This document shows positions 6,444 through 43,031 of a stretch of 64,000 nucleotides of DNA, piece by piece; within the stretch, counting starts at the first letter, position 1; each line of letters opens with the position of its first letter. The translations under genes and the position numbers were made by a program. The notes under the pieces were generated by a model. The model searched no databases. It saw only the letters and a list, made by a program, of their open reading frames with translations, and was not told the DNA's origin. The stretch comes from a virus, in the IMG/VR virus record IMGVR_UViG_3300035190_000190, positions 1 through 64,000 of that record, one strand, 5' to 3'.

Positions 6444-6785
6444 ATGATTAAAAATTTAGATATTACTAGCCCGCATTTGACTAGTAGCGCATACAGCACT
6501 CCGTACATTAACAACAACGGGCAGAGTGCTGGTACTGTGCGCTACAACACCATGACACAACAAATGGAGGTGTTTGATGGTATTAGTTGGATTAACATTA
6601 GTCAAAATGCTAGTATTGGTCTAAGCTGGACTGCTGATGAAGCTATACGTTGGGCTCAGGAAAGAATGCACGAAGATCGCGATCTTAAGGCTAAGATGGA
6701 GAAATACCCAACACTTAAATCAGCTTACGAACAGTTTAAGATGATAGAAGCGTTGGTCTACGAGGAAGAAAAAAGTGGCACATGA
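6444..6785 (+). CDS. hypothetical phage protein
   Basis: ORF abutting both neighbours; 'GTVRYN...MEVFDG..W' and 'KYPTLKSAYEQF' motifs are common in large phages. Confidence 0.7.
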   Translation: MIKNLDITSPHLTSSAYSTPYINNNGQSAGTVRYNTMTQQMEVFDGISWINISQNASIGLSWTADEAIRWAQERMHEDRDLKAKMEKYPTLKSAYEQFKMIEALVYEEEKSGT

Positions 6786-9679: not shown

Positions 9680-9868
9680 ATGGATGCAGATAAATTGCCG
9701 CATCGTATTGCACAGTTAGAAGAAAAACACCGTGTGATTAAACAACAAATTGCTGACGGGTACACTCATTATTTAGATGATGTACATCTAGGCAAAATGA
9801 AGTTAGAAAAATTAATAATCAAACGTCAAATCGTAGAAGCAAAAACAAAACTTAAGGCACAACAATGA
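9680..9868 (+). CDS. DUF465/YdcH-like small coiled-coil protein
   Basis: 'LEEKHRVIKQQI...MKLEKLIIKRQI' pattern. Confidence 0.6.
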   Translation: MDADKLPHRIAQLEEKHRVIKQQIADGYTHYLDDVHLGKMKLEKLIIKRQIVEAKTKLKAQQ

Positions 9869-10749
9869 AAAGTTTAATCGTAGGTATGGGTATTGGTAAC
9901 TTATATAATGAAGTATTGACTAACTTAGGTCATGAGATTGTAACAGTTGACTTAGATCCAAGTAAAGCAATGTACACAAATGTGGAAGATGCTGTTGCGG
10001 CACATGAATATTTTGATACTGTACATATTTGTACTCCAAACTTTACACATGAACCTATTGCCAGAGCTGTCGCGCCATATGCCAAGATTGTGTTTGTAGA
10101 AAAACCAGGATTTAAAACTTGGTTAGAATGGAAGTCTATTTGCGAAGCATTTCCATACACACGCTTTATGATGGTTAAGAATAATCAATGGCGCGAGAAC
10201 ATTCGAGAGTTACGTAGACTTGCTAGTAATTCTGTTACTATTAACTTATTTTGGATTAACAAGAATCGCGTGCCCGGACCAGGCACATGGTTTACCACTA
10301 AAGAACTAGCCTACGGTGGAGTTAGTCGTGATTTAATGACACACTTACTAAGTTTGTTTCAAGCACTTAACTATTCATACAAGTCCACTCCACTTATTAG
10401 CGCCAGCGCAGAACAACGTTATAGCTTAGAAGATGTCAGTGACACTGAATACGGTGCTGTTAAAGCAGATGGCATCTACGATGTAGACGATGTATGTAAG
10501 TTTATATTTCAAGGTCCGCAACGTACATGGAATTTAATTGCTGACTGGCGCAGTACTAGTATCGAAGAACGTGCTATTACGTTTGAAATGGTAGATGGTT
10601 CAACCGAACGCTTTGAACTAGGTCTGTGTCCAGCAGAAGCATACCAGGCAATGATTGCAGATGCAGTAGATAACCTAGGTAATGATAGCTTTTGGGCAAA
10701 ACAACTTGAACTAGATTTATGGATACATTCTGTAGTGGAAAAAGTTTGA
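9865..10749 (+). CDS. Gfo/Idh/MocA family NAD(P)-dependent oxidoreductase
   Basis: GMGIG Rossmann loop, 'ICTPNFTH', 'VEKP', 'GGVSRDLMTH'. Confidence 0.88.
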   Translation: MKSLIVGMGIGNLYNEVLTNLGHEIVTVDLDPSKAMYTNVEDAVAAHEYFDTVHICTPNFTHEPIARAVAPYAKIVFVEKPGFKTWLEWKSICEAFPYTRFMMVKNNQWRENIRELRRLASNSVTINLFWINKNRVPGPGTWFTTKELAYGGVSRDLMTHLLSLFQALNYSYKSTPLISASAEQRYSLEDVSDTEYGAVKADGIYDVDDVCKFIFQGPQRTWNLIADWRSTSIEERAITFEMVDGSTERFELGLCPAEAYQAMIADAVDNLGNDSFWAKQLELDLWIHSVVEKV

Positions 10750-11933
10750 CATCAACAAATAATTTCCTATTAAGAAATACATTAGCAGGTGTCACTACTA
10801 GTTTGGCCATGGTGCCAGAGGTAGTGGCATTTGCTTTACTAGCACATGTTAATCCATTGGTTGGATTATATGCCGCATTTATACTAGGATTAGTGGCTGC
10901 AGTGTTTGGTGGAAGGCCAGGGCTTATAAGCGGTGGTGCAGGTAGTCTAGCAGTTGTTTCCGTTGCGCTAGTAGTTACACACGGAGTAGAATATCTATTT
11001 GCTAGTATTGTACTAATGGGTATAATACAATTGGCATTTGGTTACCTGCAGATGGGTAAACTAATTAAATTAGTTAGCTCGACTGTTATGACTGGTTTCG
11101 TTAATGGTCTTGCACTTGTTATTTTTCTAGCACAGTTTCATCAGCTTAAAACAAACGGAGTATGGCTACAAGGACCTCAATTATACACAACCGCAGGACT
11201 GATATTATTAACAGTTATAGCAGTAGTTGCGGCTCCAAAACTTATTAAACGTATGCCAGCTAGTTTATTTGGTATTGTTGTAGCTACTGCGGTAGCATTA
11301 ACTTTCAATCTAGATACACATTATGTTAAAGATATTGCAACTATATCTGGAGAATTTCCTAGTTTCCATATACCTAATGTACCATTTACATGGGCAACCT
11401 TAGCTATCATTGCTCCATATTCATTTATACTTGCGGCCATTGGTCTAATAGAAACCTTACTAACCGCACAACTAGTTGATGATTATGTACATCACCACAA
11501 ACCAATCGGCAGTACCCACCCAAACAAAGAAAGTATGGCACAAGGTGCAGGTAATCTGCTAACTGGATTATTTGGCGGTATGGGTGGATGTGCAATGATT
11601 GGGCAAACTGTGATTAACTTAGAAGCTGGCGGCTTTAATAGATTAGCTGGCATAGTACAATCATTATGTATACTTGCTTATATTTTATTTGCCAGTGTCG
11701 TAATTGAGAATATACCAATGGCGGCACTAATTGGAGTAATGTTTGTTGTTTGTTATCATACTTTCAATTGGAAGAGCCTAACATTAACACAGCCAAAAGA
11801 AGATATGATATTGATATTGACAGTGACTATATTAACTGTTATACTTAACTTAGCGTATGCAGTTTTAATCGGAATTGTACTAACCAGCATGTTACATTAT
11901 TGGAAACATGTTAATAAAAAGGAAGTTGCGTGA
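10746..11933 (+). CDS. SulP/SLC26 family anion (sulfate/bicarbonate) permease, no STAS domain
   Basis: 'LAMVPEVVAFA', 'GLYAAF', 'GGRPGLISG', 'NKESMAQGAGN', 'GGMGGCAMIGQT'. TTG start at 10746 overlaps the upstream TGA. Confidence 0.92.
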   Translation: MTSTNNFLLRNTLAGVTTSLAMVPEVVAFALLAHVNPLVGLYAAFILGLVAAVFGGRPGLISGGAGSLAVVSVALVVTHGVEYLFASIVLMGIIQLAFGYLQMGKLIKLVSSTVMTGFVNGLALVIFLAQFHQLKTNGVWLQGPQLYTTAGLILLTVIAVVAAPKLIKRMPASLFGIVVATAVALTFNLDTHYVKDIATISGEFPSFHIPNVPFTWATLAIIAPYSFILAAIGLIETLLTAQLVDDYVHHHKPIGSTHPNKESMAQGAGNLLTGLFGGMGGCAMIGQTVINLEAGGFNRLAGIVQSLCILAYILFASVVIENIPMAALIGVMFVVCYHTFNWKSLTLTQPKEDMILILTVTILTVILNLAYAVLIGIVLTSMLHYWKHVNKKEVA

Positions 11934-12826
11934 GAGTAAAATTATTATGTACAGATGGCGAAGGCACATTTAGTGAAATTGCCTGGGATAAGCCAGAAAT
12001 TACAGCAGATGATATCGAAGTACGTGCTGTACTAACAGGTGTTTGTCGTAGTGATATCGATATGATGCAGGGCGAGTTCGGGCCACTGCCAATTAGTATG
12101 CACGGACACGAAGGGTTAGGTCACGTTACTAATGTTGGTGCTAATATTACTGATGTGAAAGTTGGCGATTATGTTGCTACACGTGGCGAACCTGCGTATG
12201 CTGATATGTATAACGTTAGAGCACGAGAATATGTTCAAGTACCAACCGCAGAACCTAAATACATATTAGAACCAGTTGCCTGTGGCATCAATGTAGTAAA
12301 TCAAAATTTACGTGATGTTGCTGAACGTGCCGGTGAAGGTCGACGCTTGTTGATATTAGGTAGTGGATTCCTTGCGTGGGTAGCGTATAATACATTGTTA
12401 ATCAATCATTTAGAATTTGACATTACAGTAATTGGTCGCAGTAATCAAGACTTGTGGCAGGGTAAATTATCTCAAGAAATTACTGGTGTTTATGATGTTA
12501 TTATTGATTTAACTGAGCGCACCGATTACTTACAAGGTGACTGTGTTGCAAATAATGGATTAATTATTATTGGTACAGACAAACATATTAATCAAACATT
12601 TGGACAATTGATTTGGAAAGCTGTTACTATTAGTTTTCCGAGCCCACGCACACCACGCTTTTATGAAGCAATGGTGTTAGCACGTGATTGGGTTGCTTCT
12701 GGTCAATTAACTGTTGACAAGTTCTGGACAAAGTCGTATAATAGAAAGACAGAGTGGCAATCTGCATTTGCAGATGGCGTTAATAGACCAGCAGGCTACA
12801 GTAGAGGATACATTAAGTGGGATTAA
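11930..12826 (+). CDS. zinc-dependent (MDR) alcohol dehydrogenase-like protein
   Basis: 'GVCRSD', 'GHEGLG', 'EPVAC', 'GSGFL'. Confidence 0.88.
   Translation: MRVKLLCTDGEGTFSEIAWDKPEITADDIEVRAVLTGVCRSDIDMMQGEFGPLPISMHGHEGLGHVTNVGANITDVKVGDYVATRGEPAYADMYNVRAREYVQVPTAEPKYILEPVACGINVVNQNLRDVAERAGEGRRLLILGSGFLAWVAYNTLLINHLEFDITVIGRSNQDLWQGKLSQEITGVYDVIIDLTERTDYLQGDCVANNGLIIIGTDKHINQTFGQLIWKAVTISFPSPRTPRFYEAMVLARDWVASGQLTVDKFWTKSYNRKTEWQSAFADGVNRPAGYSRGYIKWD
12714..12742 (+). promoter_or_regulatory. consensus sigma70 promoter inside the ADH gene
   Basis: TTGACA-N17-TATAAT exact. Confidence 0.75.
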
Positions 12827-13335
12827 ACACAGAAGAACGTCAGGAAGTAGTATATTTTACAGGTTATGAAGTAGAGCATACTATATGTTATGGTATGAAA
12901 ACTTTGTTTGTAGTGGGTACTCCGCCTGTAGAAGAAATACTTGAAAAAGCTCAAGCAAATGAATGTAGTCACATTTACTTTGGTACTAGTCAAAGTTTTA
13001 ATCCGCAAGCAATGACCTATGAAGAATATAAGCCTTGGGATGATGTTATTCTTGAATGTTTAAAGAATGACTACTGGGTTAGCTTAGACTTTGGTGTAGA
13101 ACACATCGAAGGTGTTATTGAAAGCGGATATTCCGAATACGCTAGATTTGTTCCTATGATTAGTGTTAAATTACCCTACATTAATCAACTTAACTACAAT
13201 GCTACACTTAAACTTGATGACATTACGTGGGGTAAAACTAATCCCGGCGTATGGACACATCATTTACAAACGCTAATGGGCAAAGATAAATTTACCTATT
13301 GGGATCAATATACTCAAGATACAGAGATCAAATAA
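12817..13335 (+). CDS. conserved hypothetical protein in the deazaguanine neighbourhood
   Basis: 172 aa with 'TLFVVG', 'HIYFG' and 'KLDD...TNPGVW'; translationally coupled to the QueD-like gene. Confidence 0.75.
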   Translation: MGLNTEERQEVVYFTGYEVEHTICYGMKTLFVVGTPPVEEILEKAQANECSHIYFGTSQSFNPQAMTYEEYKPWDDVILECLKNDYWVSLDFGVEHIEGVIESGYSEYARFVPMISVKLPYINQLNYNATLKLDDITWGKTNPGVWTHHLQTLMGKDKFTYWDQYTQDTEIK

Positions 13336-13739
13336 TGATACAAGAAGAACGTGAACAAATAGAACGTATTAAGTTTAATGGAATACGTACAACTTATATT
13401 AAAGTTAGAACTGAATTTGAAGGGTTTCATTACTACCCTAACGCAGGTACTATTGATTCGCGTATCAAATTTCTTGAGAATGAACATCGACATATATTCA
13501 AAGTTGAGGTGAAAATATCAGTTACGCACCTCGACCGTGAATTAGAATTTTTCTTAGTTAAATGGGCTTTACAAGAATTTATTAAAGCAGGCAATCAAAA
13601 TCACAAATCGTGTGAGATGATTGCTGTTAACATTTTAGAAAATCATTTAATACCATTGTATGGTAATAGATCTTATACTGTAGTAGTATCCGAGGATGGG
13701 GAATCAGATGGTATTATTGAATTTGTTCCACAGCTTTAA
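13335..13739 (+). CDS. QueD-like T-fold protein (candidate DpdL-like CDG decarboxylase)
   Basis: 'EGFH', 'LENEHRHIF' (LxxxHRHxF), 'SCEMIA', 'VSED'. Second QueD paralogue. ATG 13335 overlaps TAA. Confidence 0.7.
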   Translation: MIQEEREQIERIKFNGIRTTYIKVRTEFEGFHYYPNAGTIDSRIKFLENEHRHIFKVEVKISVTHLDRELEFFLVKWALQEFIKAGNQNHKSCEMIAVNILENHLIPLYGNRSYTVVVSEDGESDGIIEFVPQL

Positions 13740-14451
13740 TTAGTTCTTCTAAAGTTATTGAACAACTTATACGTTTAGATCTATTATCAAACTTAGGTAG
13801 TAATTCTAAATTAGCATAATGCCCTATAATTTCTGGAGAAATATTTTGTTTAAACCCTTCAGTAATGCTAAATTTATGATCTAATTCAAAGTTAGCACCT
13901 CGTTCTAAATTTTGAGGATTAATTTTATTTTGATAGTGTGTCCAACTCTTATAAGTATGATTAAGGACTTGTTCTCTATACAATTCCCACTCAGTTTTTA
14001 GTTCCTTGGAAATAGCAATACCATTTTTAATTTTTGTATATGTTGCTTCGATGTAGCAAGAAGGATTTCGTTTAATGGCCTTAGCTGATTGTTTTTGTTT
14101 AGTCTCATTACTATGAGTCTTATTATACATAGGATTATTTTCGCCGGAATGCCCGCCTCTAGTAGCAATTGCTTTCGAAATTTTATTACCCTTTGTAGCA
14201 AGCCAACTACGATCGTTATGTCGTTCTTTAAGAACAGCATTTCCCCTCTCGCTCATCAGTTTTATATGAGCACGTCGTTGTTCTGGAGTAATTTTACTAT
14301 CTCTAGATGCTTGTGCTTTTTTAATAAAACCAGGGCATTGAGTAATTTTCTCAACACATCTCATTTTTTTGGAATTATAACTTATGTAAAAGGCTTGACA
14401 TCCGCACAAATAACACGTATTATTAACATTAACATTAGTAAGTTTAGGCAT
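13714..14451 (-). mobile_element. free-standing HNH/NUMOD3 homing endonuclease
   Basis: NUMOD3 'GENNPMYNKTHSNETKQKQS', HNH-like 'LDHKFS...NLELL...NRSK', N-terminal CxxC-like. Only - strand gene in a + strand operon; GATAAATA upstream. Confidence 0.8.
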
Positions 14452-14511
14452 AGTTCTATCTCTCTATTGTTATTATTTATCTCAGCCGTCACTATTTAAG
14501 GAGAATTTTCC

Positions 14512-14742
14512 GTGGCAAATCCAGTTTGGCTTAAAAAGTATCTTACTATGAAGCCCGAAGTAAGACAAATCTACAACGATTTAGATGCATGGTGCAACTA
14601 CTGTCGTTTCCACATGATCAAGTATGATGAGGCTGATTTATATGTTAGCCCAGCTTACAAAGAATGGCAGGAAAAACGCAAACGTCGCGAACAATGGCGC
14701 CAACAACAAGGGCAAACGCAGGGTTATCAAGGACGTAGATAG
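14512..14742 (+). CDS. hypothetical phage protein
   Basis: AAGGAG SD and GTG start; 'IYNDLDAWCNYCRF...YDEADLY'. Confidence 0.7.
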   Translation: MANPVWLKKYLTMKPEVRQIYNDLDAWCNYCRFHMIKYDEADLYVSPAYKEWQEKRKRREQWRQQQGQTQGYQGRR

Positions 14743-14743
14743 C

Positions 14744-15337
14744 ATGACTGCTTACAGCAAGTCGAATATATCGATCATTGGTGAACAAGGCGATCTCGCT
14801 AAGGCATTATATAATAAGTTGATATTAGAACACCATGTAATCTGTTATGGAAAAAATCAGTATGATTTTCTCAATAAAGATAATATTTCTACGTTAGTTG
14901 ATAGTATCCATCAAAGTGATATTATAATTAGCTGTCCTGGAGTTTTTGCTTCTGCTGACAGCTGGGAGACGTTTACTATAAATGCTCTTGCGCCAATTTA
15001 TCTATTAGAAAAATTAGTAGAAAAACAATCCAAAGCTCATGTTATAATTGTGGGTAGTCATGGTGCTATGTGGACTAGTTGGCCAGGAATCTCAATGGGA
15101 AAATTGGCTTATAATGTCAGTAAAGAAACTATACAATCTTTTACTACAGGACTAAGCCAGTCTAATTTATCTGATCTGAAATTATCTGTGTTTAATCCTA
15201 GCGTATTCCAAAGTAAAATAAATGGATATCAAGGTCATCCTATCGATATTATCGTAGATGGTATTATACATGTTATACAAGCTCCCGCTCCACTATTAAT
15301 CTACGAATATAATAATTATCAAAATGCTAGTCGATAA
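14744..15337 (+). CDS. short-chain dehydrogenase/reductase-like protein
   Basis: Degenerate Rossmann 'IIGEQGDLA', 'TINALAP', 'IIVGS' and YxxxK (YNVSK). ATG 14744 preferred. Confidence 0.65.
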   Translation: MTAYSKSNISIIGEQGDLAKALYNKLILEHHVICYGKNQYDFLNKDNISTLVDSIHQSDIIISCPGVFASADSWETFTINALAPIYLLEKLVEKQSKAHVIIVGSHGAMWTSWPGISMGKLAYNVSKETIQSFTTGLSQSNLSDLKLSVFNPSVFQSKINGYQGHPIDIIVDGIIHVIQAPAPLLIYEYNNYQNASR

Positions 15338-16430
15338 AATATCTCAAATTGAATTAGAATTAACTACTAAATGCAATGCTCGTTGTCCGCAGTGTATACG
15401 TAATTATTATGGGTCATATACGTGGCCTAGTTTACCTATTGTTGATTTAGATATTAATACACTTAAACAATCTATTAATTCTGAAATTTGGGAAAACTTA
15501 GATCATCTGAGATTATGTGGCACTTACGGTGATCCATGTATGCATAAAGATCTTATTAAAATAGTAAAATGGATTAAAACCGTAAGCCCTGCAGCTATTA
15601 CTATCAACTCCAATGGTGGAATTAGAAACCCTAAGTGGTGGGGAGAACTTGCTGGTATACTAGATAGCGACAAAGACACAGTGGTTTTTGGATTAGACGG
15701 ATTAGCCGATACCAATCATCTCCATCGAATTGGCGTAAATTATAATAAAGTTATAGAAAATCTTAAAGCATTCAACCAAGCCGGGGGTAAATCAGTTTGG
15801 CAATTTTTGGTATTCGAACATAACGAACATCAAGTTGATATTGCTAGAGAATTTGCACTTAGTATCGGGTGCGCAGAATTTTCTTATAAATTAACCAGCA
15901 GATTTGTGGATAAAACCCATAAATTAATAGATAAAAGTCCTGTGATGAATAATCAAGGCGAACCTATTTATTTTTTAAAGCCTGCTAAAAATTCTAAATA
16001 TAAAAATCAAGGATATGATACCTTTGAAGAAACAACTAAACTATTTGATGGTTATGACAATTATTTAAAAACAACTACCATTGATTGTTTTGCAAAAAGA
16101 ATGCAATATATAGCTATCACTGCCGAAGGTTATGTTTTTCCTTGTGCTTGGCTGGCTGATAGACTATATGGATACGAAACAGAAAAACATAAAGATCACG
16201 AAACCATTTTAAAAATGATTGATAGTATAGGCGGTAAGGAAAAAATTAATTTAAAATATACAGATCTTAATAGTATTATTTCAGGGCCTTGGTTTGAGCT
16301 AGTAGAAAATAGTTGGAAAACCAATGAGTTAGAAAGATGTGCGCATATATGTGGCAGTAGAAGTGGGCTGATACAGGCCGCCAGCGAAGGCCAATTTAAA
16401 AGTTTAATTGATCCTAAGGTAAAAAAATGA
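15324..16430 (+). CDS. radical SAM protein with C-terminal SPASM/twitch-like Cys cluster
   Basis: CNARCPQC, 'GTYGDP', 'GYVFPC', 'CAHIC'. Confidence 0.9.
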   Translation: MLVDKISQIELELTTKCNARCPQCIRNYYGSYTWPSLPIVDLDINTLKQSINSEIWENLDHLRLCGTYGDPCMHKDLIKIVKWIKTVSPAAITINSNGGIRNPKWWGELAGILDSDKDTVVFGLDGLADTNHLHRIGVNYNKVIENLKAFNQAGGKSVWQFLVFEHNEHQVDIAREFALSIGCAEFSYKLTSRFVDKTHKLIDKSPVMNNQGEPIYFLKPAKNSKYKNQGYDTFEETTKLFDGYDNYLKTTTIDCFAKRMQYIAITAEGYVFPCAWLADRLYGYETEKHKDHETILKMIDSIGGKEKINLKYTDLNSIISGPWFELVENSWKTNELERCAHICGSRSGLIQAASEGQFKSLIDPKVKK

Positions 16431-17524: not shown

Positions 17525-18111
17525 TGAATGCCTTTGATCCAATATACCAGTTTGAACAAGCATTAGGTGCGCTTACGGGTGCACCTTTTGTCGTTATGAC
17601 AGATTCGTGTACACATGCACTAGAACTGTGTCTACGTTACGACAAGGTAAAACGGTGTCGTTTTACGGCATTTACCTACCTTTCTGTGCCAATGACCATG
17701 CATAAATTAGACATTTCGTATGGTTTAGTGCCTGATAATGAATGGGTCGGAGAATATCCCATACTTGGTACACGGATATGGGATAGTGCGAGATTGCTAC
17801 GTACAGGTATGTATCGTAGTGGGCAAATGCAGTGCTTGAGCTTTGGTCACAGCAAGCCATTGGATATTGGTCGTGGTGGTGCTATCTTGCTAGACGATGA
17901 AGTTGCCTACAACAAACTTATACAGCAACGTGGCGACGGCAGAGACTTAAAGATAACACCATGGGAATCACAAAAGGTATTTGAAGTTGGCTATCATTAT
18001 CGTCCAACCATAGAAGAAGCAGTACAAGCATTAGAAAAATTACCGTTGGTTAATCAAGAATCTAAATACGTTGTGTATCCAGATCTTAGAGAGATAATTA
18101 TAAAGGATTAA
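17524..18111 (+). CDS. short DegT/DnrJ/EryC1/StrS-like PLP aminotransferase
   Basis: 'DSCTHAL', 'DSA', 'SFGHSKPL..GRGG'; only 195 aa. Confidence 0.75.
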   Translation: MNAFDPIYQFEQALGALTGAPFVVMTDSCTHALELCLRYDKVKRCRFTAFTYLSVPMTMHKLDISYGLVPDNEWVGEYPILGTRIWDSARLLRTGMYRSGQMQCLSFGHSKPLDIGRGGAILLDDEVAYNKLIQQRGDGRDLKITPWESQKVFEVGYHYRPTIEEAVQALEKLPLVNQESKYVVYPDLREIIIKD

Positions 18112-18112
18112 T

Positions 18113-19033
18113 ATGAAAGTTTTTATCACAGGAGCTAGTGGATTCATTGGCTCCCATTTTGTTAAAGTATTAGAAAATAACCATATGGTGCATTCGATGC
18201 AGTCGGACTTATTGGAATTTTCAAAAGTTAGACAAGAATTATTCGACTTTGACCCCGATGTGATTGTACACTTTGGTGCGAGAACCGAAGTCGAGCGTAG
18301 TTTTTACGAACAAGTTACTTTTAGTCAGGTTAATTATGTCGGTACTGTAAATTTAATCGAAAGTGCCGCTAAACTTAAAAATCTAAAAAATTTCGTATTC
18401 GCTAGTACAATGGAAGTGTACGGCTGGCAGCCAGTGAGTGATATAATTAAAGAGAAGGGATATCTCAAAGATATTCCGATATTTGACGAAAATACTATCC
18501 CAAATCCCAATGCTCCGTATGCTGTTGCCAAATATGCTTGCGAAAAATATTTAGAATATGCTCACAGAAGCTTAGGTCTTCCATTTTGTGCTATTAGACA
18601 AACCAATACATACGGTCGTAAGAAGAATGATTTTTTTGTTGTAGAACAGATTATTACACAAATGATGAAAAATCCTAATATTATTAACTTAGGATACGAT
18701 ACTCCATATAGAAATTTCTTATATATCGATGATTTACTAAATTTATGGTCTACTATCATTGAAAATCCAGATAAAGTAAGCAATGGTTATATTTTTACTA
18801 TAGGACCAAATAATCCCATTCAGATTAAAGAATTAGCAAATGTTATTGCTAAGAAATTAGATTGGCATGGCGAAATAAAGTGGAATTCAAAACCTGCTAG
18901 GCCTGGAGAAATTTATCTATTAAACAGTGGCCACGAATTGGTTACCAAAATAACTGGATGGAAGCCGACTGTAGATTTAAATAACGGGTTAGATAGAACC
19001 ATTGATCATTGGAAAATAGAGTTAAGCAAATAA
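18113..19033 (+). CDS. NAD-dependent nucleotide-sugar epimerase/dehydratase
   Basis: GASGFIG, 'STMEVYG', YAVAK, 'RNFLYIDD'. Confidence 0.92.
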   Translation: MKVFITGASGFIGSHFVKVLENNHMVHSMQSDLLEFSKVRQELFDFDPDVIVHFGARTEVERSFYEQVTFSQVNYVGTVNLIESAAKLKNLKNFVFASTMEVYGWQPVSDIIKEKGYLKDIPIFDENTIPNPNAPYAVAKYACEKYLEYAHRSLGLPFCAIRQTNTYGRKKNDFFVVEQIITQMMKNPNIINLGYDTPYRNFLYIDDLLNLWSTIIENPDKVSNGYIFTIGPNNPIQIKELANVIAKKLDWHGEIKWNSKPARPGEIYLLNSGHELVTKITGWKPTVDLNNGLDRTIDHWKIELSK

Positions 19034-20815
19034 ATGCATAATGTCTATCTATTCCAGCCACAATATGCTGTAGAATTTCGAGAAGAAAAAAATTATTGGT
19101 TACCATATAGTGCTGGGTGCTTATGGAGTTATGCTAGCCAATTTACTGATATAAGAGAAAATTTTATTCTTCGAGAATTATTCTTTAAAAGACAGCCTAT
19201 CGACGAAATATTAGATAGGATCGATAATCCGAAAGTTTGTGGATTTAGTTGTTATTTGTGGAACGAACGGTATAGTCTAACATTAGCTAAAGCGATAAAA
19301 TTGCGATGGCCGGAATGTATAATTGTATTTGGTGGCGCTCAGGTCAGTGGCCGTATGCTTAAATATGAATTTATCGATTCACTGGTTATGGCAGAAGGTG
19401 AAGAAGCATTTACTAAAATTTTACAAGATATAATTGCTAAAAATCCCATAGATAAGCTAACGTCACGAGCACGGCTTCAAGATCTTAATATACCAAGTCC
19501 GTATGTCACTGGTGTGTTTGATCAATTAATTATAGATAACCCTAATACTATATGGGCAATGACATTAGAAACTAATCGAGGGTGTCCGTATGCTTGTACA
19601 TTTTGTGATTGGGGAGGTACCACTTATAGTAAAGTTAAGAAGTTCGATCTCGACAAGGTTGCGGCAGAACTAGACTGGGCAGTTAATCATCGAGTGGCTT
19701 ATATTTTTAGTGCTGATGCTAATTTTGGTATATTTAAAGAACGAGATGTTGAAATTGCTAAATTGATACGGACAGCGGCTGATAATTCAATTATCGAAAC
19801 TGTTAATTTACAATTTGCAAAGAATAGTACAGAAATTGTTTTCGAAATTGCTAAAATCATGGGGCCATATAATCGAGGTATTACAGTTAGTGTGCAGAGT
19901 ATGAATGACCTTACTTTAGAAACAATTAAACGTAAAAATCTTGAAATAAACAATATTAAATATCTATTAGAACTTAGCAAAAAGTATGACCTTAGTACTT
20001 ACACCGAAGTTATATTGGGATTACCTCACGAAACAAAAGAATCATGGATAAATGGATTATCCCAACTGTTAGAATTGGGACAACACCAAAGCATTGATAT
20101 CTGGTTTACACAATTACTCGAGAATTCAGAACTTGCCACAGAACAAAGTAGAAGAGAGTACGGTATTAAATCTATATTAGTTAAAGATTATATGAACTTA
20201 GACCAAACCGAAGATAGTATACCCGAATATACTGAAATTGTGTGCGAAACTAATACAATGTCTACTGAGGAAATGATTGATTGTTATATGTATACCTGGA
20301 TGATCATACATTTTCATATTGCCGGGTATACACAAATTATAGCCAAATATGCCAGAAATCTTGAAAATATATCATTCAAAATATTTTACGACCAATTATT
20401 TACAGAAATACAATATAATAAATCGCTCGGCGAACATTACCAATCGTTACGAAATACTGTTACTGATTATCTAACTACAGGTACCCTAACAGGAAAACTA
20501 GCCGGCGGCCATGCATTGCATGCAGTTTCGTATAAGTTTATGTACGAAAATAGATGCACCGTAGCTAACCTTGCTGTAACTGCATTAAAAAAATTAATAC
20601 CGATTGTACCATCAGATCTACTGTTACTGCAAGATTTGTTTATTATAGATATAACTACACAATATCCCCAAACCTTACAAACCAATTATAACATCGACAC
20701 TGGCAGTAAGATGATAACTACCTATGTAATAACTCAACGAATTAAAGAACAAATAGAAGATTTTTATACTATACGGAGAAAAGGGTTAATAAAAAACCTA
20801 TTATTAATATTATGA
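19034..20815 (+). CDS. cobalamin-binding radical SAM protein (class B methyltransferase-like)
   Basis: N-terminal B12-binding-like 'GFSCYLWN...VFGG...EGE' and 'RGCPYACTFCDW'. Confidence 0.88.
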   Translation: MHNVYLFQPQYAVEFREEKNYWLPYSAGCLWSYASQFTDIRENFILRELFFKRQPIDEILDRIDNPKVCGFSCYLWNERYSLTLAKAIKLRWPECIIVFGGAQVSGRMLKYEFIDSLVMAEGEEAFTKILQDIIAKNPIDKLTSRARLQDLNIPSPYVTGVFDQLIIDNPNTIWAMTLETNRGCPYACTFCDWGGTTYSKVKKFDLDKVAAELDWAVNHRVAYIFSADANFGIFKERDVEIAKLIRTAADNSIIETVNLQFAKNSTEIVFEIAKIMGPYNRGITVSVQSMNDLTLETIKRKNLEINNIKYLLELSKKYDLSTYTEVILGLPHETKESWINGLSQLLELGQHQSIDIWFTQLLENSELATEQSRREYGIKSILVKDYMNLDQTEDSIPEYTEIVCETNTMSTEEMIDCYMYTWMIIHFHIAGYTQIIAKYARNLENISFKIFYDQLFTEIQYNKSLGEHYQSLRNTVTDYLTTGTLTGKLAGGHALHAVSYKFMYENRCTVANLAVTALKKLIPIVPSDLLLLQDLFIIDITTQYPQTLQTNYNIDTGSKMITTYVITQRIKEQIEDFYTIRRKGLIKNLLLIL

Positions 20816-21951
20816 CATTAGACCACACACAAACAATTTTTGATAATCAAACCTTAAATTATGACTTAGAAAAATATCCATTACCTGCTATAGTATTAGA
20901 AACTATTCAACAATTTTATCCAGATGCAACAACACTGGACACATTGCACGAAGTGGTGCCGGCAAATAAAATACAACAATTAATGGTTGACACCACACAG
21001 GCTTTACTTAAGAATAAATTTTATGATTACTATGATACTATGATTCAAGATCAGATAGTATCAACGCTAGGCAAGGAAGTATTAATTCAAAAGTTTGGTA
21101 ATCTTAGAATCCTACCACCAAATCAAGACCAAATTGGAGCAGTATTGCTATTTCATCAAGGTCGGTGGGTGGGTAATGGGTTGGGTTTACGCACAATTTG
21201 GATGCCATTCACTGATTGCTATGAAAGTAATAGCATGCAAATGTTAGATTTAGACATTAGTAGAAAAATTACTAGAGAATCTGTTATAGAGAAATGGAGT
21301 TATGAAAAATTACAACAAGTCTGTGTAGATAACTGTTGGCCGGTTACATTACAGCCAGGGCAGGCACACTTGTTTTTACAAGAACATATACACGGTAATA
21401 TCCCCAATAGGACTAATAAAACTAGAGTTAGTATCGATATAAGATTGTTAATAAAAGATGAGCAACCTCATCGTAAATGGCCAGGGGCATATTTCCGCAA
21501 ATTATTCGATCGAGACTATTCCAAAACTATCCCAATCTTAGCACATGAAAAAGTATTAAATTATTGTGAATACGAAGGCGTTAAAACTAAACATATTGAT
21601 CTATATTTTCAAACATTAGTAGTCAAATCCTATTGCCAAAAACGTGGATATACTTATCCGTATCAACATGGAGACAACGAAGGATTAAACTATGCGCATC
21701 TTGAGTATTTGATATCTAGCAAGAGTGCAGATCATTTATTATTGTTTAGTATTTTTAGTTTGCCAGATGATGCTGCACATCGTATAAGATTACTGACTAC
21801 TGCATTAGATCTCGGTGTACGAATACATCTGTGCAATGAAGAAATGGTATTAGAATCTTATGAAGATCTTGAAAAAATAGAATATATTCGAAACTTTACA
21901 AATGATTGGTCGACTCCAGTCGAACAGCTTAGTAAAGAATTGAATAATTAA
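20812..21951 (+). CDS. 2OG-Fe(II) oxygenase-like domain fused to a LIC12192-like 'sporadic carbohydrate cluster' domain
   Basis: N-terminal 'FHQG...IWMP...HGN..N.T.KTRVSIDIR'; C-terminal 'FQTLVVKSYC...LFSIFSLPDD...IHLCNE'. Confidence 0.65.
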   Translation: MTLDHTQTIFDNQTLNYDLEKYPLPAIVLETIQQFYPDATTLDTLHEVVPANKIQQLMVDTTQALLKNKFYDYYDTMIQDQIVSTLGKEVLIQKFGNLRILPPNQDQIGAVLLFHQGRWVGNGLGLRTIWMPFTDCYESNSMQMLDLDISRKITRESVIEKWSYEKLQQVCVDNCWPVTLQPGQAHLFLQEHIHGNIPNRTNKTRVSIDIRLLIKDEQPHRKWPGAYFRKLFDRDYSKTIPILAHEKVLNYCEYEGVKTKHIDLYFQTLVVKSYCQKRGYTYPYQHGDNEGLNYAHLEYLISSKSADHLLLFSIFSLPDDAAHRIRLLTTALDLGVRIHLCNEEMVLESYEDLEKIEYIRNFTNDWSTPVEQLSKELNN

Positions 21952-21963
21952 TTATCAAATAGT

Positions 21964-21993
21964 TTGACTAGACCTAAATAATAGTGTTATACT
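21964..21993 (+). promoter_or_regulatory. sigma70-type (extended -10) promoter with nested TAAATA
   Basis: TTGACT-N18-TATACT with TG extension; TAAATA at 21975-21980. Confidence 0.6.
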
Positions 21994-22039
21994 AATATAT
22001 CAGTCGCCAATATCCACTGGCTTAACATAGGAGCAATAA

Positions 22040-22741
22040 ATGTCAGAAATTAAATATGCAGTAAGCGAACGAATTCGCAGTAACTTAAAAGCGAAGAATA
22101 AACGCTTCTGGGCAGGTGACAACGTATCTGAATATATCACTGAAGAAGATAAACAACTATTAATCAACGAAGCCACATTGGCTTTTGAAGGAGTGCTAGA
22201 TGCACTACTAATTGACCGTGAAAATGATCCAAACTCAAAAGGCACAGCACGTAGACTTGCTAAGATGTACTATCATGAAATTATGGCAGGTAGATATGAT
22301 CCGGCGCCAGATGCAACTGCATTTCCAAATGATAGCACGGATCGCTATGAAGGTATGCTAGTGGTACGTAGTGAACTGCGTAGTATGTGTAGTCATCATC
22401 ATCAACCAGTTAAAGGTGTAGCCTATATTGGTATTATTGCTGCACAAAAACTAATTGGACTTAGTAAGTATACACGTATCGCGCAATGGTGTGCTACACG
22501 TGGCACATTACAAGAAGAATTATGTAATGATATTTCAAGAGAGATTATGAAGGCTACGGGCAGTAATGATGTTGCTGTATATATTCAAGCAACACATGGT
22601 TGCTGTGAGAATCGTGGTATTTTAGCACATAGCTCGCTCACACAAACTACAGTACTCAAAGGTGCATTTAATAATGACCCAGGTACTAAACAAGAATTCT
22701 TTGATAATGTAAAACTTCAACAACAGTTTGCACCACGATAG
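22040..22741 (+). CDS. folE: GTP cyclohydrolase I
   Basis: 'SMCSHHHQP', 'GLSKYTR', 'LQE', 'HGCCENRG'. Confidence 0.95.
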   Translation: MSEIKYAVSERIRSNLKAKNKRFWAGDNVSEYITEEDKQLLINEATLAFEGVLDALLIDRENDPNSKGTARRLAKMYYHEIMAGRYDPAPDATAFPNDSTDRYEGMLVVRSELRSMCSHHHQPVKGVAYIGIIAAQKLIGLSKYTRIAQWCATRGTLQEELCNDISREIMKATGSNDVAVYIQATHGCCENRGILAHSSLTQTTVLKGAFNNDPGTKQEFFDNVKLQQQFAPR

Positions 22742-22750
22742 GGAATAGTT

Positions 22751-23092
22751 ATGAAATGGTTAGATAATTGGATTCAGCGTTGCTACAACCGTGCTCGTGA
22801 GTGTGATGAACTTATTGAAGTTGATGATTGGGATGAACCAAAACGTAGTCGTCGTGGGCGCCTTAGTAAAGGAGGGCCTATTAGTGCTGGCACACGCAGA
22901 GTAGAGCATAACTATGATGATGACAGTGTTATTACTTTTAAAATCTACGGCGCTAATGGTGGTAAGATTGTAGAAACATCACGCTGGGATGAAAAGAAAG
23001 ATAACGAAAGTATTAGACGTTATGTCATTGACGAGAACGCAGATATGGCAGAAAGTTTAAGCAAGATTGTTACTATGGAGTATATGCGATGA
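22751..23092 (+). CDS. hypothetical phage protein
   Basis: ORF with SD; 'FKIYGANGGKIVE' motif. Confidence 0.7.
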   Translation: MKWLDNWIQRCYNRARECDELIEVDDWDEPKRSRRGRLSKGGPISAGTRRVEHNYDDDSVITFKIYGANGGKIVETSRWDEKKDNESIRRYVIDENADMAESLSKIVTMEYMR

Positions 23093-23586
23093 ATAATGTT
23101 GAAAAAGTTTATTACGATGACGTACACATCAAAGAAATGATTGGTAATATCACCATGCAAATGCATCGTGGCGGTGTATGGAAACCTGATTACATTGTCG
23201 GACTAACACGTGGCGGATTAATTCCAGCAGTGTATCTAAGTCATTATCTTAATGTTCCAATGGAAACGTTAAAAGTAAGTTTGCGTGATAATGCAGATAC
23301 TGAAAGTAATTGCTGGATGGCCGAAGATGCATACAATGGCAAAAACATTCTTATCGTAGATGATATCAACGACACAGGTGCTACACTAGATTGGATTATT
23401 AACGATTGGCAAAGTAGCTGTCATCCCTCTGATGCGCATTGGTCGAATGTTTGGGGTAATACTGTGAAATTTGCTGTGCTAGTTGATAATTTAAGCAGTA
23501 ACTTTAGTCGTACTGTAGACTATTCAGCTAAAGAGATTAACAAAGCAGACAAGGATGTATGGATTGTTTATCCATGGGAAAGGTAG
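23089..23586 (+). CDS. type I phosphoribosyltransferase (purine PRT-like)
   Basis: 'GLTRGGLIPA', PRPP loop 'LIVDDINDTGAT', C-terminal 'WIVYPWE'. Confidence 0.9.
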   Translation: MNNVEKVYYDDVHIKEMIGNITMQMHRGGVWKPDYIVGLTRGGLIPAVYLSHYLNVPMETLKVSLRDNADTESNCWMAEDAYNGKNILIVDDINDTGATLDWIINDWQSSCHPSDAHWSNVWGNTVKFAVLVDNLSSNFSRTVDYSAKEINKADKDVWIVYPWER

Positions 23587-23590
23587 TAAT

Positions 23591-25662: not shown

Positions 25663-25862
25663 TAGAAACAAAGAAAAGAACCATAGTTAGAATGCTTACC
25701 TATAGGCTCACAGCATGGTTATTTACAATCTTTTGGACTTGGTTAATTATGGGTGACTTAGCAACATCGACAGGATTTGCTACTATACTACATCTATTAT
25801 TAAGTATCGATTATTATGTACACGAACGTATGTGGTTAAAAATTAAATGGGGTATGAGATGA
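25659..25862 (+). CDS. DUF2061-like small membrane protein
   Basis: 'ETKKRTIVRMLTYR...YYVHERMWLKIKWG'. Confidence 0.75.
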   Translation: MIETKKRTIVRMLTYRLTAWLFTIFWTWLIMGDLATSTGFATILHLLLSIDYYVHERMWLKIKWGMR

Positions 25863-40376: not shown

Positions 40377-40386
40377 GAAAAATACA

Positions 40387-43025: not shown

Positions 43026-43031
43026 AATAAT

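What the first reader, a model, noticed from the sequence alone, without database searches (positions are those of the whole stretch)
9865..23586. Candidate tailoring module (Gfo/Idh/MocA, Zn-ADH, unknown protein, GT-B, mini-DegT, PRTase) inside the deazaguanine cluster: a possible glycosylated deazaguanine
Seen: between the TGT gene and folE/queE sit an oxidoreductase (9865), an MDR dehydrogenase (11930), a conserved unknown (12817), a GT4-like glycosyltransferase (16427), a 195-aa DegT-like aminotransferase (17524) and a purine PRTase (23089). These look compositionally like the core genes, while the AT-rich genes between them look like later insertions. Known: Gfo/Idh/MocA plus DegT pairs make amino sugars through keto intermediates, and GT-B enzymes glycosylate modified bases in phage DNA (T4 alpha/beta glucosyltransferases). 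Inference: an undescribed hypermodification such as an (amino)sugar attached to a deazaguanine, with the PRTase possibly salvaging or activating the free base. This is my best candidate for the new system in the window.
Basis: inference. Interest (0 to 1): 0.82.

Follow-up and report, generated by a model that had tools for sequence, protein, structure and literature searches.

The report
Glycosyltransferase-bearing deazaguanine DNA modification cluster
A giant environmental phage carries the known gene set for replacing guanine in its DNA with 7-deazaguanine, always joined to a sugar-transferring enzyme and an unknown protein that the published pathway does not explain, so its DNA may carry a new sugar-decorated base.

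Summary
All six ORFs exist at the stated coordinates. The window is a fragment of a distant PA5oct-like jumbo phage.

**Core pathway.** It holds a DpdL-type 7-deazaguanine gene set:
- a DpdA3-like transglycosylase (6775)
- FolE, QueE and a true QueD (31761)
- no QueC in the 75 kb held

**Linkage in related viral contigs.**
- GT to U172 and DpdL: 70 of 70
- GT to the PRTase: 52 of 57
- GT to the mini-DegT: 30 of 57
- Gfo/Zn-ADH pair: 12 of 70. It mostly occurs without the mini-DegT, so the proposed Gfo+DegT pairing fails.

**The glycosyltransferase.** Its model has a GT-B/GT4 fold. In isolated phages, all 17 records with a near-full-length homologue also have DpdL. The gene lies within 3 kb of DpdL in PA5oct, Phosso, ACP17, X1/BUDD and BCSR5. 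The published pathway tables omit it.

**AT-rich genes.** They are sporadic, yet they are the most sugar-like enzymes and interleave with GT and mini-DegT in relatives.

**Verdict.** A sugar-decorated 7-deazaguanine is the best reading (about 0.45) but chemically unproven. An unrelated glycan module remains a serious rival. The scan noted this same stretch before in an overlapping window.

The parts
6775..8448 (+). DpdA3-like DNA guanine transglycosylase (557 aa)
   Evidence: 34% identical to PA5oct QCG76197, which Cui et al. 2023 DS1 list as DpdA3. hhalign against the ACP17/X1/BCSR5 DpdA proteins gives probability 89.9%, E 1.7e-6, over 197 columns that include the DSGGFQ stretch. The Atlas feature score to a viral TGT-like cluster is 0.93. 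It fails PF01702. Found in 70 of 80 related loci.
8449..9678 (+). Twitch-domain radical SAM enzyme (409 aa), sporadic accessory
   Evidence: NF033640, 226.6 bits against a cut-off of 170. Found in 2 of 70 loci. GC 0.310.
9865..10749 (+). Gfo/Idh/MocA oxidoreductase (294 aa)
   Evidence: PF01408, 32.1 bits. The best solved relative is DgpA 7xr9, E 2.3e-7. Found in 12 of 70 GT-anchored loci and, together with Zn-ADH, in 64 of 76 U172-anchored loci.
10719..11933 (+). SulP-family permease without a STAS domain (404 aa), inserted between Gfo and Zn-ADH
   Evidence: PF00916, E 1e-46. Found in 3 of 70 loci.
11930..12826 (+). Short MDR/Zn-ADH-like dehydrogenase (298 aa)
   Evidence: PF08240, 43 bits. 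It always accompanies Gfo, and its end usually overlaps the start of U172 by 6 bases.
12817..13335 (+). U172: conserved orphan alpha/beta protein
   Evidence: No hit in any family library. The model has pLDDT 86, with no fold match better than Foldseek E 0.02 or VIA Z 6.3. Found in 70 of 70 loci. The family has 791 clusters at 50% identity. Homologues occur in ACP17 and the PA5oct group.
13299..13739 (+). DpdL-like T-fold protein (proposed CDG decarboxylase)
   Evidence: Carries the LxxxHRHxF motif, as do 75 of 75 homologues. The motif definition comes from Cui et al. 2023. tblastn hits phiST and ACP17 DpdL. Found in 70 of 70 loci.
13714..14451 (-). NUMOD3 homing endonuclease
   Evidence: PF07460. 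It travels with one particular DpdL allele.
14512..14742 (+). Small basic conserved protein upstream of the GT (76 aa)
   Evidence: Found in 66 of 70 loci. Median pI 9.6. No family assignment.
14624..15337 (+). SDR-like reductase; the true start is probably internal
   Evidence: Weak NCBIfam SDR hits. Relatives match only the first 44-70 residues of the ORF, so there are no orthologues in the 80 loci.
15324..16430 (+). Radical SAM enzyme (368 aa) with weak SPASM/twitch-maturase-like matches
   Evidence: PF04055, 39.5 bits. NCBIfam gives only sub-threshold matches to rSAM maturases. Found in 0 of 80 loci.
16427..17524 (+). GT-B / GT4-like glycosyltransferase (365 aa)
   Evidence: Model pLDDT 80.7. 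At least 370 PDB matches at E <= 0.001; the top ones are glycogen synthase, BshA, MshA, PglA and PimA. R221, K226, E273 and E281 are invariant. The X1 and BCSR5 homologues pass PF00534. All 17 near-full-length hits among isolates co-occur with DpdL.
17524..18111 (+). Mini-DegT: truncated PLP-enzyme-like protein (195 aa)
   Evidence: PF01041, 41.4 bits. It keeps Asp87 and Lys111 but lacks about 40 internal residues and the whole C-terminal domain. Found in 30 of 57 loci. Relatives sit in multi-GT clusters of other phages.
18113..19033 (+). NAD-dependent sugar epimerase/4,6-dehydratase (306 aa)
   Evidence: PF01370, E 8.4e-40. Orthologues of 60-80% identity lie beside GT/mini-DegT in 6 loci.
19034..20815 (+). 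B12-binding radical SAM enzyme, KedN5-like C-methyltransferase (593 aa)
   Evidence: NF033712, E 3e-54, below its cut-off. Full-length orthologues of 47-65% identity occur in 5 loci, between or beside GT and mini-DegT.
20812..21951 (+). Fusion of a 2OG-Fe(II) oxygenase and a LIC12192-type 'sporadic carbohydrate cluster' protein (379 aa)
   Evidence: TIGR04324, 99.8 bits, and TIGR04323, 49.9 bits, both below cut-off. Found in 1 of 57 loci.
22040..22741 (+). GTP cyclohydrolase I (FolE)
   Evidence: PF01227, E 2.5e-37. Found in 54 of 57 loci.
22751..23092 (+). Conserved small unknown (113 aa) upstream of the PRTase
   Evidence: Found in 37 of 57 loci. No family assignment.
23089..23586 (+). Small purine (6-oxopurine-type) phosphoribosyltransferase
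   Evidence: PF00156, 55.9 bits. The best solved relatives are P. horikoshii purine PRT 1vdm (E 5.8e-12) and XGPRTs. Found in 52 of 57 loci. A homologue lies in the PA5oct module.
23555..24796 (+). AT-rich unknown (413 aa), unique insert
   Evidence: GC 0.285. Found in 0 of 57 loci. No family assignment.
24814..25662 (+). QueE (7-carboxy-7-deazaguanine synthase)
   Evidence: phrog_2076, E 2e-52, plus NCBIfam QueE models.
25847..26956 (+). S-adenosylmethionine synthetase (MetK)
   Evidence: Three SAM-synthetase domains. Found in 13 of 80 loci.
31761..32312 (+). QueD (CPH4 synthase) with the Cys-x3-His-Gly-His signature
   Evidence: PF01242, 90-92 bits. The motif is seen.

Best explanation
The region is a DpdL-type 7-deazaguanine DNA modification cluster of a PA5oct-related jumbo phage, enlarged by a sugar-tailoring layer.

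Supported by family or homology evidence:
- FolE, QueD and QueE are the enzymes that turn GTP into 7-carboxy-7-deazaguanine.
- A DpdL-type T-fold protein and a DpdA3-like transglycosylase are present, and no QueC was found. In Cellulophaga phage phiST this gene signature goes with 2'-deoxy-7-deazaguanine replacing G.
- A GT-B/GT4 glycosyltransferase with an intact donor-binding motif, and an orphan protein (U172), are fixed parts of this cluster type.

Inferred:
- The deazaguanine base is swapped into DNA for guanine.
- The PRTase recycles the released guanine to GMP, or else activates the deaza base.
- The glycosyltransferase puts a sugar from an NDP-sugar onto the deazaguanine, either on DNA or on the free base before insertion.
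- The variable neighbours remodel that sugar, so its identity differs between phages. These are the mini-DegT, 4,6-dehydratase/epimerase, B12-rSAM methylase, 2OG oxygenase, other rSAMs, and Gfo/Zn-ADH.
- MetK supplies SAM.

The acceptor atom and the role of U172 are unknown.
For: **Gene set.** FolE, QueE, QueD and DpdL are identified. No QueC or PF01702 hit occurs in the 75-kb record. DpdA3 assignment rests on PA5oct QCG76197 and hhalign at 89.9% probability.

**GT fold and catalytic residues.**

**Linkage.**
- Of 70 loci spanning DpdA-like to GT: U172 70, DpdL 70.
- Of 57 loci spanning GT to QueE: FolE 54, PRTase 52.
- 49 of 49 U172-anchored loci with at least 6 kb downstream have both DpdL and GT.

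**Isolated phages.**
- 17 of 17 records with a GT hit covering at least 80% of the query also have DpdL, in five lineages, 0-2.8 kb apart.
- In ACP17, the only genes inside the QueD-to-QueE block that Cui et al. leave unassigned are a 47-aa ORF and the U172 and GT homologues.
- In PA5oct the GT gene lies between the listed DpdA3 and DpdL.

**Published gaps.**
- Cui et al. could not obtain dDG from ACP17 DpdL plus DpdA in E. coli and suggested missing enzymes.
- PA5oct DNA resists several G-containing restriction sites. Its base has not been identified.

**Sugar enzymes beside the GT.** Nucleotide-sugar enzymes recur next to the GT in different relatives: a full DegT with GDP-mannose 4,6-dehydratase, UDP-glucose dehydrogenase, epimerases and a PfkB kinase. 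The epimerase and B12-rSAM sit between the GT and the mini-DegT.
Against: - No chemistry is available, and 7-deazaguanine has no obvious hydroxyl for a sugar.
- phiST makes dDG with DpdL but has no detectable GT or U172, so the GT is not needed for dDG itself.
- The window's GT does not reach any Pfam GT threshold. Only 4 of 21 family members give weak PF00534 hits.
- Mini-DegT relatives sit in multi-GT glycan clusters of a cyanophage and of Flavobacterium phage immuto_2-6A. That phage's DNA was measured as fully fdPreQ1, with no sugar reported.
- The window has further sugar and rSAM genes far from the cluster, at 44-61 kb. Such genes are therefore common in this genome.
- The loci compared are not independent; near-duplicates were not removed.
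- The record is about 21% of a genome, so absence of QueC is not proven.
Confidence: 0.45

Rival explanations
1. This is an unrelated glycan module. The glycosyltransferase, the mini-DegT and the sugar/rSAM enzymes make or attach a glycan to a virion protein or a host surface molecule. They merely accumulate in a permissive insertion hot spot of the replication module. The DNA carries plain dDG.
For: - Mini-DegT relatives lie in multi-GT clusters of S-SCSM2R and immuto_2-6A, away from any listed deazaguanine gene.
- immuto_2-6A DNA is fully fdPreQ1.
- The window has a second sugar/rSAM gene set at 44-61 kb.
- The interval between the DpdA-like gene and QueE is highly variable. It also takes up non-sugar genes such as a peptidase, HIT, MazG, SnoaL and homing endonucleases.
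- The sporadic genes have lower GC.
Against: - This GT family is never seen without DpdL among isolated phages, in 17 of 17 near-full-length hits.
- It sits inside compact deazaguanine operons of phages with unrelated backbones (ACP17, X1, BCSR5) that have no other sugar genes beside it.
- It lies in the replication module, not near structural genes.
Confidence: 0.25
2. The GT and U172 are needed to make or insert the deazaguanine but leave no sugar on the DNA. Possible roles are a transient glycosyl intermediate, a protected or inactive precursor that is later deglycosylated, or a structural partner of DpdA/DpdL.
For: - Reconstitution with ACP17 DpdL plus DpdA alone failed.
- U172 and GT are the only sizeable unassigned genes in that cluster.
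- U172 gave weak (beta/alpha)-barrel and glycoside-hydrolase-like leads.
- The closest solved relative of the Gfo is a glycoside 3-oxidase that works in a deglycosylation pathway.
Against: - phiST reaches full dDG replacement without either gene.
- The U172 fold leads are below any trustworthy level: Atlas 0.84, Foldseek E 0.02, Z 6.3.
- Recurrent recruitment of sugar-remodelling enzymes next to the GT makes little sense for a sugar that is thrown away.
Confidence: 0.15
3. This is a pterin glycoside pathway. FolE plus PTPS-family proteins make a tetrahydropterin, and the GT4 enzyme glycosylates it, as cyanobacterial BGluT does.
For: Tetrahydrobiopterin glucosyltransferases (9v0l, 9v0w, 5zer) are among the GT-B matches, at ranks 29-42. 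FolE and two PTPS-family proteins are present.
Against: - The BGluT matches are no better than dozens of generic GT4 enzymes.
- QueE and a DpdA-type transglycosylase are fixed parts of the cluster.
- No sepiapterin-reductase-type gene is conserved, since the SDR has 0 orthologues in 80 loci.
- PA5oct shows a DNA phenotype at G sites.
Confidence: 0.05

Closest known systems
DpdL/DpdA3-type 2'-deoxy-7-deazaguanine (dDG) system of Cellulophaga phage phiST (Cui et al. 2023, NAR; passages and supplement table DS1 read)
   Same: It has FolE, QueD, QueE, a DpdL with the LxxxHRHxF motif and a DpdA-family transglycosylase, with no QueC found. Its homologue in PA5oct is listed in that paper as DpdA3 + DpdL.
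   Different: This cluster always carries a GT4-like glycosyltransferase and U172, usually a purine PRTase, and here a dozen sugar/rSAM tailoring genes. None of these is in the published scheme or detectable in phiST.
T4 glucosyl-hydroxymethylcytosine (alpha/beta-glucosyltransferases) and other glycosylated pyrimidines in phage DNA
   Same: The logic is the same: a modified base made first, then a GT-B-fold enzyme adding a sugar, with sugar diversity between phages (general knowledge, recalled).
   Different: The base would be a purine analogue rather than a hydroxymethyl pyrimidine. The enzyme resembles retaining GT4 enzymes (BshA, MshA, PimA), and T4 GTs are not among the 50 matches listed. 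No hydroxymethylase is evident.
Glycosylated queuosine in eukaryotic tRNA and glycosylated 7-deazapurine natural products (recalled, not tested here)
   Same: Both involve a sugar on a 7-deazaguanine-derived base.
   Different: Those occur on tRNA or as free metabolites. Their acceptor is a cyclopentenediol or a ring or exocyclic nitrogen. No QueA/QueG-type genes are present here.
Phage multi-glycosyltransferase clusters with a mini-DegT (Synechococcus phage S-SCSM2R, Flavobacterium phage immuto_2-6A)
   Same: A 195-214-aa truncated DegT-like gene directly follows a GT gene, with rSAM, 2OG oxygenase and epimerase genes nearby.
   Different: Those clusters hold several GTs and no deazaguanine genes in the stretch shown. 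Their GTs are not detectable relatives of the window's GT.

Membership tests
DpdL (proposed CDG decarboxylase, Cui et al. 2023) | QueD paralogue in which the QueD signature CxxxHGH is replaced by LxxxHRHxF | tested here: met
   The motif is present in the window protein and in 75 of 75 homologues from related loci. The definition is taken from the paper.
DpdL (proposed CDG decarboxylase, Cui et al. 2023) | Occurs with DpdA, FolE, QueD and QueE, and without QueC | tested here: met
   Caveat: only 75 kb, about 21% of the genome, could be searched for QueC.
DpdL (proposed CDG decarboxylase, Cui et al. 2023) | Decarboxylates CDG to 7-deazaguanine | not testable with these tools
   The activity was not demonstrated in the source paper either.
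DpdA / TGT transglycosylases | Match to the Pfam TGT (PF01702) or DpdA model above threshold | tested here: not met
   No Pfam hit at E 0.01. No PF01702 match anywhere in the record. The DpdA proteins of ACP17, X1 and BCSR5 also fail Pfam.
DpdA / TGT transglycosylases | Homology to proteins already classed as DpdA | tested here: met
   34% identity over the full length to PA5oct QCG76197, listed as DpdA3. hhalign to the ACP17/X1/BCSR5 DpdA2 proteins gives 89.9% probability, E 1.7e-6. The Atlas gives 0.93 to a TGT-like cluster.
DpdA / TGT transglycosylases | TIM-barrel TGT fold with the catalytic Asp residues | not tested
DSGGFQ and SFDCASP stretches are invariant, but equating them with the TGT catalytic motifs is recalled.
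GT-B fold, GT4-like retaining glycosyltransferases | Two Rossmann-like domains (GT-B fold) | tested here: met
   Model pLDDT 80.7, pTM 0.81. At least 370 PDB matches at E <= 0.001; the top ones are glycogen synthase, BshA, MshA, PglA, BA1558 GT4 and PimA.
GT-B fold, GT4-like retaining glycosyltransferases | Pfam Glycos_transf_1 (PF00534) above threshold | tested here: not met
   The window protein has no hit. 4 of 21 family members give weak hits, best E 0.0021. The homologues in X1 (45.5 bits) and BCSR5 (42.0 bits) do pass the 26.4-bit cut-off.
GT-B fold, GT4-like retaining glycosyltransferases | E-x7-E motif and the Arg/Lys pair of the donor site | tested here: met
   E273, E281, R221 and K226 are invariant in 21 sequences. 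E-x7-E is present in the five isolate homologues. The motif definition is recalled.
T4-type DNA glucosyltransferases | Structural similarity to T4 alpha- or beta-GT | tested here: inconclusive
   They are not among the 50 matches listed. At least 370 matches passed E <= 0.001, and I did not look at the rest.
DegT/DnrJ/EryC1 sugar aminotransferases | Pfam PF01041 above threshold, with the PLP lysine | tested here: met
   41.4 bits against 19.8. Lys111 is at least 90% conserved and Asp87 is invariant.
DegT/DnrJ/EryC1 sugar aminotransferases | Full two-domain architecture of about 360-400 aa | tested here: not met
   It has 195 aa. Against full DegT proteins of the window (45077) and L040, it lacks about 40 internal residues and the whole C-terminal domain.
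Gfo/Idh/MocA oxidoreductases | N-terminal NAD-binding domain PF01408 above threshold | tested here: met
   32.1 bits against 24. The C-terminal domain is below threshold.
Medium-chain (Zn) alcohol dehydrogenases | GroES-like domain plus the Rossmann ADH_zinc_N domain | tested here: inconclusive
   ADH_N scores 43 bits against 23.5. No hit was found for the C-terminal domain, and the protein is short at 298 aa.
Type I purine phosphoribosyltransferases | PF00156 above threshold and similarity to 6-oxopurine PRTs | tested here: met
   55.9 bits against 26.3. 1vdm gives E 5.8e-12, and XGPRTs give about 1e-4. All NCBIfam equivalogs are below cut-off. Substrate was not tested.

The most novel reading that the evidence does not exclude
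A very abundant clade of environmental jumbo phages, and cultured phages such as PA5oct, Phosso and ACP17, may carry a glycosylated 7-deazaguanine in their DNA. This would be the first sugar-bearing purine analogue in a genome.

It would be made by a DpdA/DpdL core plus a dedicated GT4-type enzyme and the orphan protein U172. The sugar would be diversified from phage to phage by swapped-in amino-, deoxy-, methyl- and keto-sugar enzymes.

That diversification would be an arms race with defences that recognise plain deazaguanines.
Probability: 0.35. Interest if true: 0.88.

Novelty: new variant of a known kind. Interest (0 to 1): 0.72.

Why it matters
**Unknown end products.** 7-Deazaguanine DNA modifications are an active field. 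For the DpdL branch the end product is known only for phiST-like phages.
- Cui et al. 2023 report that reconstitution with ACP17 DpdL plus DpdA failed.
- The PA5oct preprint reports a G modification whose chemistry is unidentified.

**What this analysis adds.** A glycosyltransferase and an orphan protein are fixed, unexplained parts of this cluster type.
- They occur in at least five phage lineages.
- The accompanying DpdA-like protein family has at least 7882 protein clusters in metagenomes.
- Both genes sit in the gaps of the published gene tables.

**Direct tests.** Nucleoside mass spectrometry and GT knock-outs can be done in cultured phages.

**If a sugar is found.** It would be a new class of DNA base. 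It would parallel T4's glucosylation, and it would bear on restriction evasion, on the defence glycosylases and nucleases that sense deazaguanines, and on enzymatic DNA labelling.

Tried and rejected
**Searches that gave nothing useful**
- Megablast of 20 kb against isolated phages: no match.
- PADLOC on eight proteins: nothing.
- Profile searches of PDB sequences with the DpdA-like, GT and U172 alignments: only chance-level hits.
- Single-sequence hhalign of the DpdA-like profile. Against ACP17 DpdA it was weak (probability 19.7%, E 1.2e-3). Against X1 it was negative (E 0.12). Only the enlarged profiles gave 89.9%.

**U172**
- Atlas leads to glycoside-hydrolase-like clusters scored only 0.84.
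- Foldseek best E was 0.02, and VIA-wide best Z was 6.3 with many ties.
- I checked whether longer U172 relatives are U172-DpdL fusions. They are not: the extensions are disordered, Lys-rich tails, and Pfam finds nothing meaningful.
- The proteins in the U172 position of Phosso ('glycosylase') and X1 are not U172 homologues by hhalign.

**Other checks**
- Global pI as a test for DNA binding is uninformative, because the GT and the DpdA-like protein are both acidic.
- Apparent SDR orthologues in 11 loci were an artefact of the first 44-70 residues of the ORF.
- A scan of bacterial and archaeal genomes with U172 found only 8 MAG contigs, which carry the same gene neighbourhood as the viral loci. 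That scan was meant for viral contigs and was repeated there.
- The promoter/terminator scan showed no significant excess.

**Not done**
- Folds of the DpdA-like protein and the mini-DegT.
- The electrostatic surface of the GT.
- A complex prediction.

**Literature.** Searches for a GT or PRTase linked to deazaguanine DNA found no such report.

Full report
**What the window is.** It belongs to an IMG/VR virus record of 75 kb that CheckV rates at about 21% complete. It has no near-identical relative among isolated phages. Its family B DNA polymerase, flap endonuclease and several neighbours are 38-51% identical to those of Pseudomonas jumbo phage PA5oct and Sinorhizobium phage Phosso, in the same gene order. 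All genes in 1.8-32 kb lie on the + strand with tiny gaps or overlaps, except one homing endonuclease.

**The observation.** The six ORFs are present at the stated coordinates.
- Pfam supports Gfo/Idh/MocA (32.1 bits), the N-terminal Zn-ADH domain (43 bits), DegT (41.4 bits) and a type I PRTase (55.9 bits).
- The 365-aa protein has no family hit of its own.
- Its AlphaFold model, built from 21 homologues (pLDDT 80.7, pTM 0.81), matches GT-B enzymes of the GT4 type. At least 370 PDB chains match at E <= 0.001, led by archaeal glycogen synthase, BshA, MshA, PglA and PimA.
- Arg221, Lys226, Glu273 and Glu281 (E-x7-E) are invariant. The motif assignment is recalled.
- Homologues in Xanthomonas phage X1 and Burkholderia phage BCSR5 pass the PF00534 cut-off.
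- The 172-aa protein (U172) remains an orphan. No library hit was found. A confident model (pLDDT 86) has no fold match better than Foldseek E 0.02 or VIA Z 6.3, among many ties.

**The core pathway.** FolE (22040) and QueE (24814) are clear.
Cui et al. 2023 give this as the signature of DpdL, their proposed CDG decarboxylase. All 75 of 75 homologues in related loci have it.
- The real QueD, with the Cys-x3-His-Gly-His signature, is at 31761-32312.
- No QueC was found in the 75 kb.
- The 'TGT' (6775-8448) fails the Pfam TGT model. It is 34% identical over its length to PA5oct QCG76197, which supplement DS1 of Cui et al. lists as DpdA3.
- A profile of the family aligns to the DpdA proteins of ACP17, X1 and BCSR5 with 89.9% probability (E 1.7e-6, 197 columns).
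- The language-model Atlas points to TGT-like and DpdA clusters (0.93 and 0.88).
- In phiST this gene signature goes with complete replacement of G by 2'-deoxy-7-deazaguanine.

**Linkage test, sample 1.** Using the GT as anchor, at least 597 viral stretches encode relatives. The best 80 loci (65-95% identity, 10-kb flanks) were compared with 33 window proteins.
- Of 70 loci that span the DpdA-like gene to the GT: U172 70, DpdL 70, small basic ORF 66, Gfo 12, Zn-ADH 12, SulP 3, twitch rSAM 2.
- Of 57 loci that span the GT to QueE: FolE 54, PRTase 52, 113-aa ORF 37, mini-DegT 30, epimerase 7, B12-rSAM 10 (only 5 are full-length orthologues), 2OG fusion 1, 413-aa ORF 0.
- The SDR and the 15324 rSAM have no orthologue in the 80 loci.
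- The window has the longest DpdA-to-GT interval of all: 7979 bases, against a median of 1676 and a maximum of 5562.

**Linkage test, sample 2.** A second sample of 80 loci was anchored on U172.
- All 49 loci with at least 6 kb downstream have both DpdL and GT.
- 64 of 76 loci have the Gfo/Zn-ADH pair. The end of Zn-ADH usually overlaps the start of U172 by 6 bases.
- 0 of 40 loci that span GT to QueE have the mini-DegT.
- In sample 1, among 47 loci complete on both sides, Gfo/Zn-ADH and mini-DegT co-occur in 4. Gfo/Zn-ADH occur alone in 4, mini-DegT alone in 19, and neither in 20.
- Near-duplicate loci were not removed, so these counts overstate independence.

**Cultured phages.** tblastn with the GT finds 22 records. 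All 17 with at least 80% coverage also have a DpdL hit.
- They fall into five lineages: the PA5oct group, Phosso, ACP17, X1/BUDD and BCSR5. The two genes lie 0-2.8 kb apart.
- The 5 partial GT hits (65% coverage, 25% identity) have no DpdL.
- Twelve records have DpdL without the GT, including phiST.
- In ACP17 the block reads QueD, a 47-aa ORF, FolE, U172 homologue, DpdA, GT, DpdL, QueE. In DS1 of Cui et al. the U172 and GT homologues have no assignment there.
- In PA5oct the GT (QCG76198) lies between the listed DpdA3 and DpdL.
- U172 homologues occur only in the PA5oct group and ACP17, in 13 of 13 hit records, all of which have the GT and DpdL.
- Cui et al. report that ACP17 DpdL plus DpdA gave no dDG in E. 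coli, and that other enzymes may be needed.
- A 2025 preprint shows PA5oct DNA resisting several enzymes with G in their sites. It infers a modified G and gives no mass spectrometry for PA5oct.

**The tailoring genes.**
- The mini-DegT keeps the PLP lysine and aspartate. It lacks about 40 internal residues and the entire C-terminal domain of full DegT enzymes.
- The nearest solved relative of the Gfo is DgpA, E 2.3e-7. That DgpA is a glycoside 3-oxidoreductase is recalled.
- The PRTase resembles small archaeal and bacterial 6-oxopurine PRTs.
- The low-GC genes are a sugar 4,6-dehydratase/epimerase, a KedN5-like B12-rSAM C-methyltransferase, a 2OG oxygenase fused to a 'sporadic carbohydrate cluster' domain, two further rSAMs and an SDR.
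- In relatives the same interval holds other nucleotide-sugar enzymes: a full DegT with GDP-mannose 4,6-dehydratase, UDP-glucose dehydrogenase, epimerases and a PfkB kinase. It also holds oxygenases, rSAMs, HIT, MazG, an IMPDH/GMP-reductase-like protein and a YhhQ-type transporter.
- Epimerase and B12-rSAM orthologues sit between or right beside the GT and the mini-DegT, in different orders. This argues that they work with that pair.

**Evidence against a DNA-sugar reading.**
- Mini-DegT relatives in Synechococcus phage S-SCSM2R and Flavobacterium phage immuto_2-6A lie in multi-GT glycan clusters. immuto_2-6A DNA was measured as fully fdPreQ1.
- The window has more sugar and rSAM genes at 44-61 kb.
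- phiST makes dDG without the GT.
- 7-Deazaguanine offers no obvious acceptor hydroxyl.

**Verdict.**
- The existence of a conserved GT/U172 layer on DpdL-type clusters is well supported.
- That it yields a sugar-decorated deazaguanine is the best single explanation (about 0.45) but is unproven.
- An unrelated glycan module (0.25), and a role in making the base without leaving a sugar (0.15), remain open.
- I found no report of this in the searchable literature.
- The scan had noted the same stretch before, in an overlapping window of the same genome.

Noticed in passing
window 13299-14451: The window's DpdL allele abuts a NUMOD3 homing endonuclease on the opposite strand. Most sibling loci have a DpdL only 31-43% identical. 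Five loci with the endonuclease (L005, L006, L017, L018, L031) carry the window's allele at 89-97%, and three more loci have a 76-82% allele without a detected endonuclease. The closest isolate match is a Synechococcus phage at 62.5%. This looks like allele replacement by homing.
   Followed up: partly
window 10719-11933: A SulP-family anion permease without its STAS domain is encoded by the phage. It is inserted between Gfo and Zn-ADH, in 3 of 70 loci of the first sample and 2 of 76 of the second. Its substrate and purpose are unknown.
   Followed up: partly
window 14512-14742: A small, very basic protein (median pI 9.6) lies directly upstream of the GT in 66 of 70 loci. It has no family assignment. 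It might be a nucleic-acid-binding partner of the GT.
   Followed up: partly
window 14624-16430: The SDR plus rSAM block is unique to this window. The first 44 codons of the SDR ORF match sequence that lies just upstream of the GT in relatives, so they look like a scar of the insertion.
   Followed up: partly
window 44130-60799: A second set of sugar and rSAM genes lies away from the cluster. It includes an epimerase/dehydratase (44130), a full-length DegT (45077), a carbamoyltransferase (49612, - strand), an APS-kinase-like P-loop protein, an 849-aa double rSAM/SPASM protein and two more rSAMs.
   Followed up: no
window 9556-9584 and 12714-12742: Two perfect 12-of-12 sigma-70-type promoter matches lie just upstream of the Gfo unit and of U172. 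Matches of 10-11 of 12 precede Zn-ADH, the small basic ORF, FolE and QueE. The total count is not above the shuffled expectation.
   Followed up: no
proteins P0168-P0250 (relatives of window 12817-13335): Longer members of the U172 family carry disordered C-terminal tails. The tails have a recurring short Ala/Tyr/Glu-rich motif and a Lys-rich end. Their meaning is unknown.
   Followed up: partly
L086 (Burkholderia phage BCSR5) 5812-6519; L085 (Xanthomonas phage X1) 5335-5868: BCSR5 has a weak PIG-L-type deacetylase match next to its GT homologue, which recalls the BshA/BshB and MshA/MshB pairs (those pairs are recalled). X1 and BCSR5 have PAPS-reductase-like ATP-pyrophosphatase-fold proteins in the same block.
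   Followed up: no
window 40324-40860, 42493-43865, 48802-49224: A HIT-domain protein, DHFR, thymidylate synthase and dCMP deaminase are encoded nearby. In sibling phages, HIT and MazG genes sit inside the deazaguanine interval. This could point to nucleotide-level handling of the modified base.
   Followed up: no
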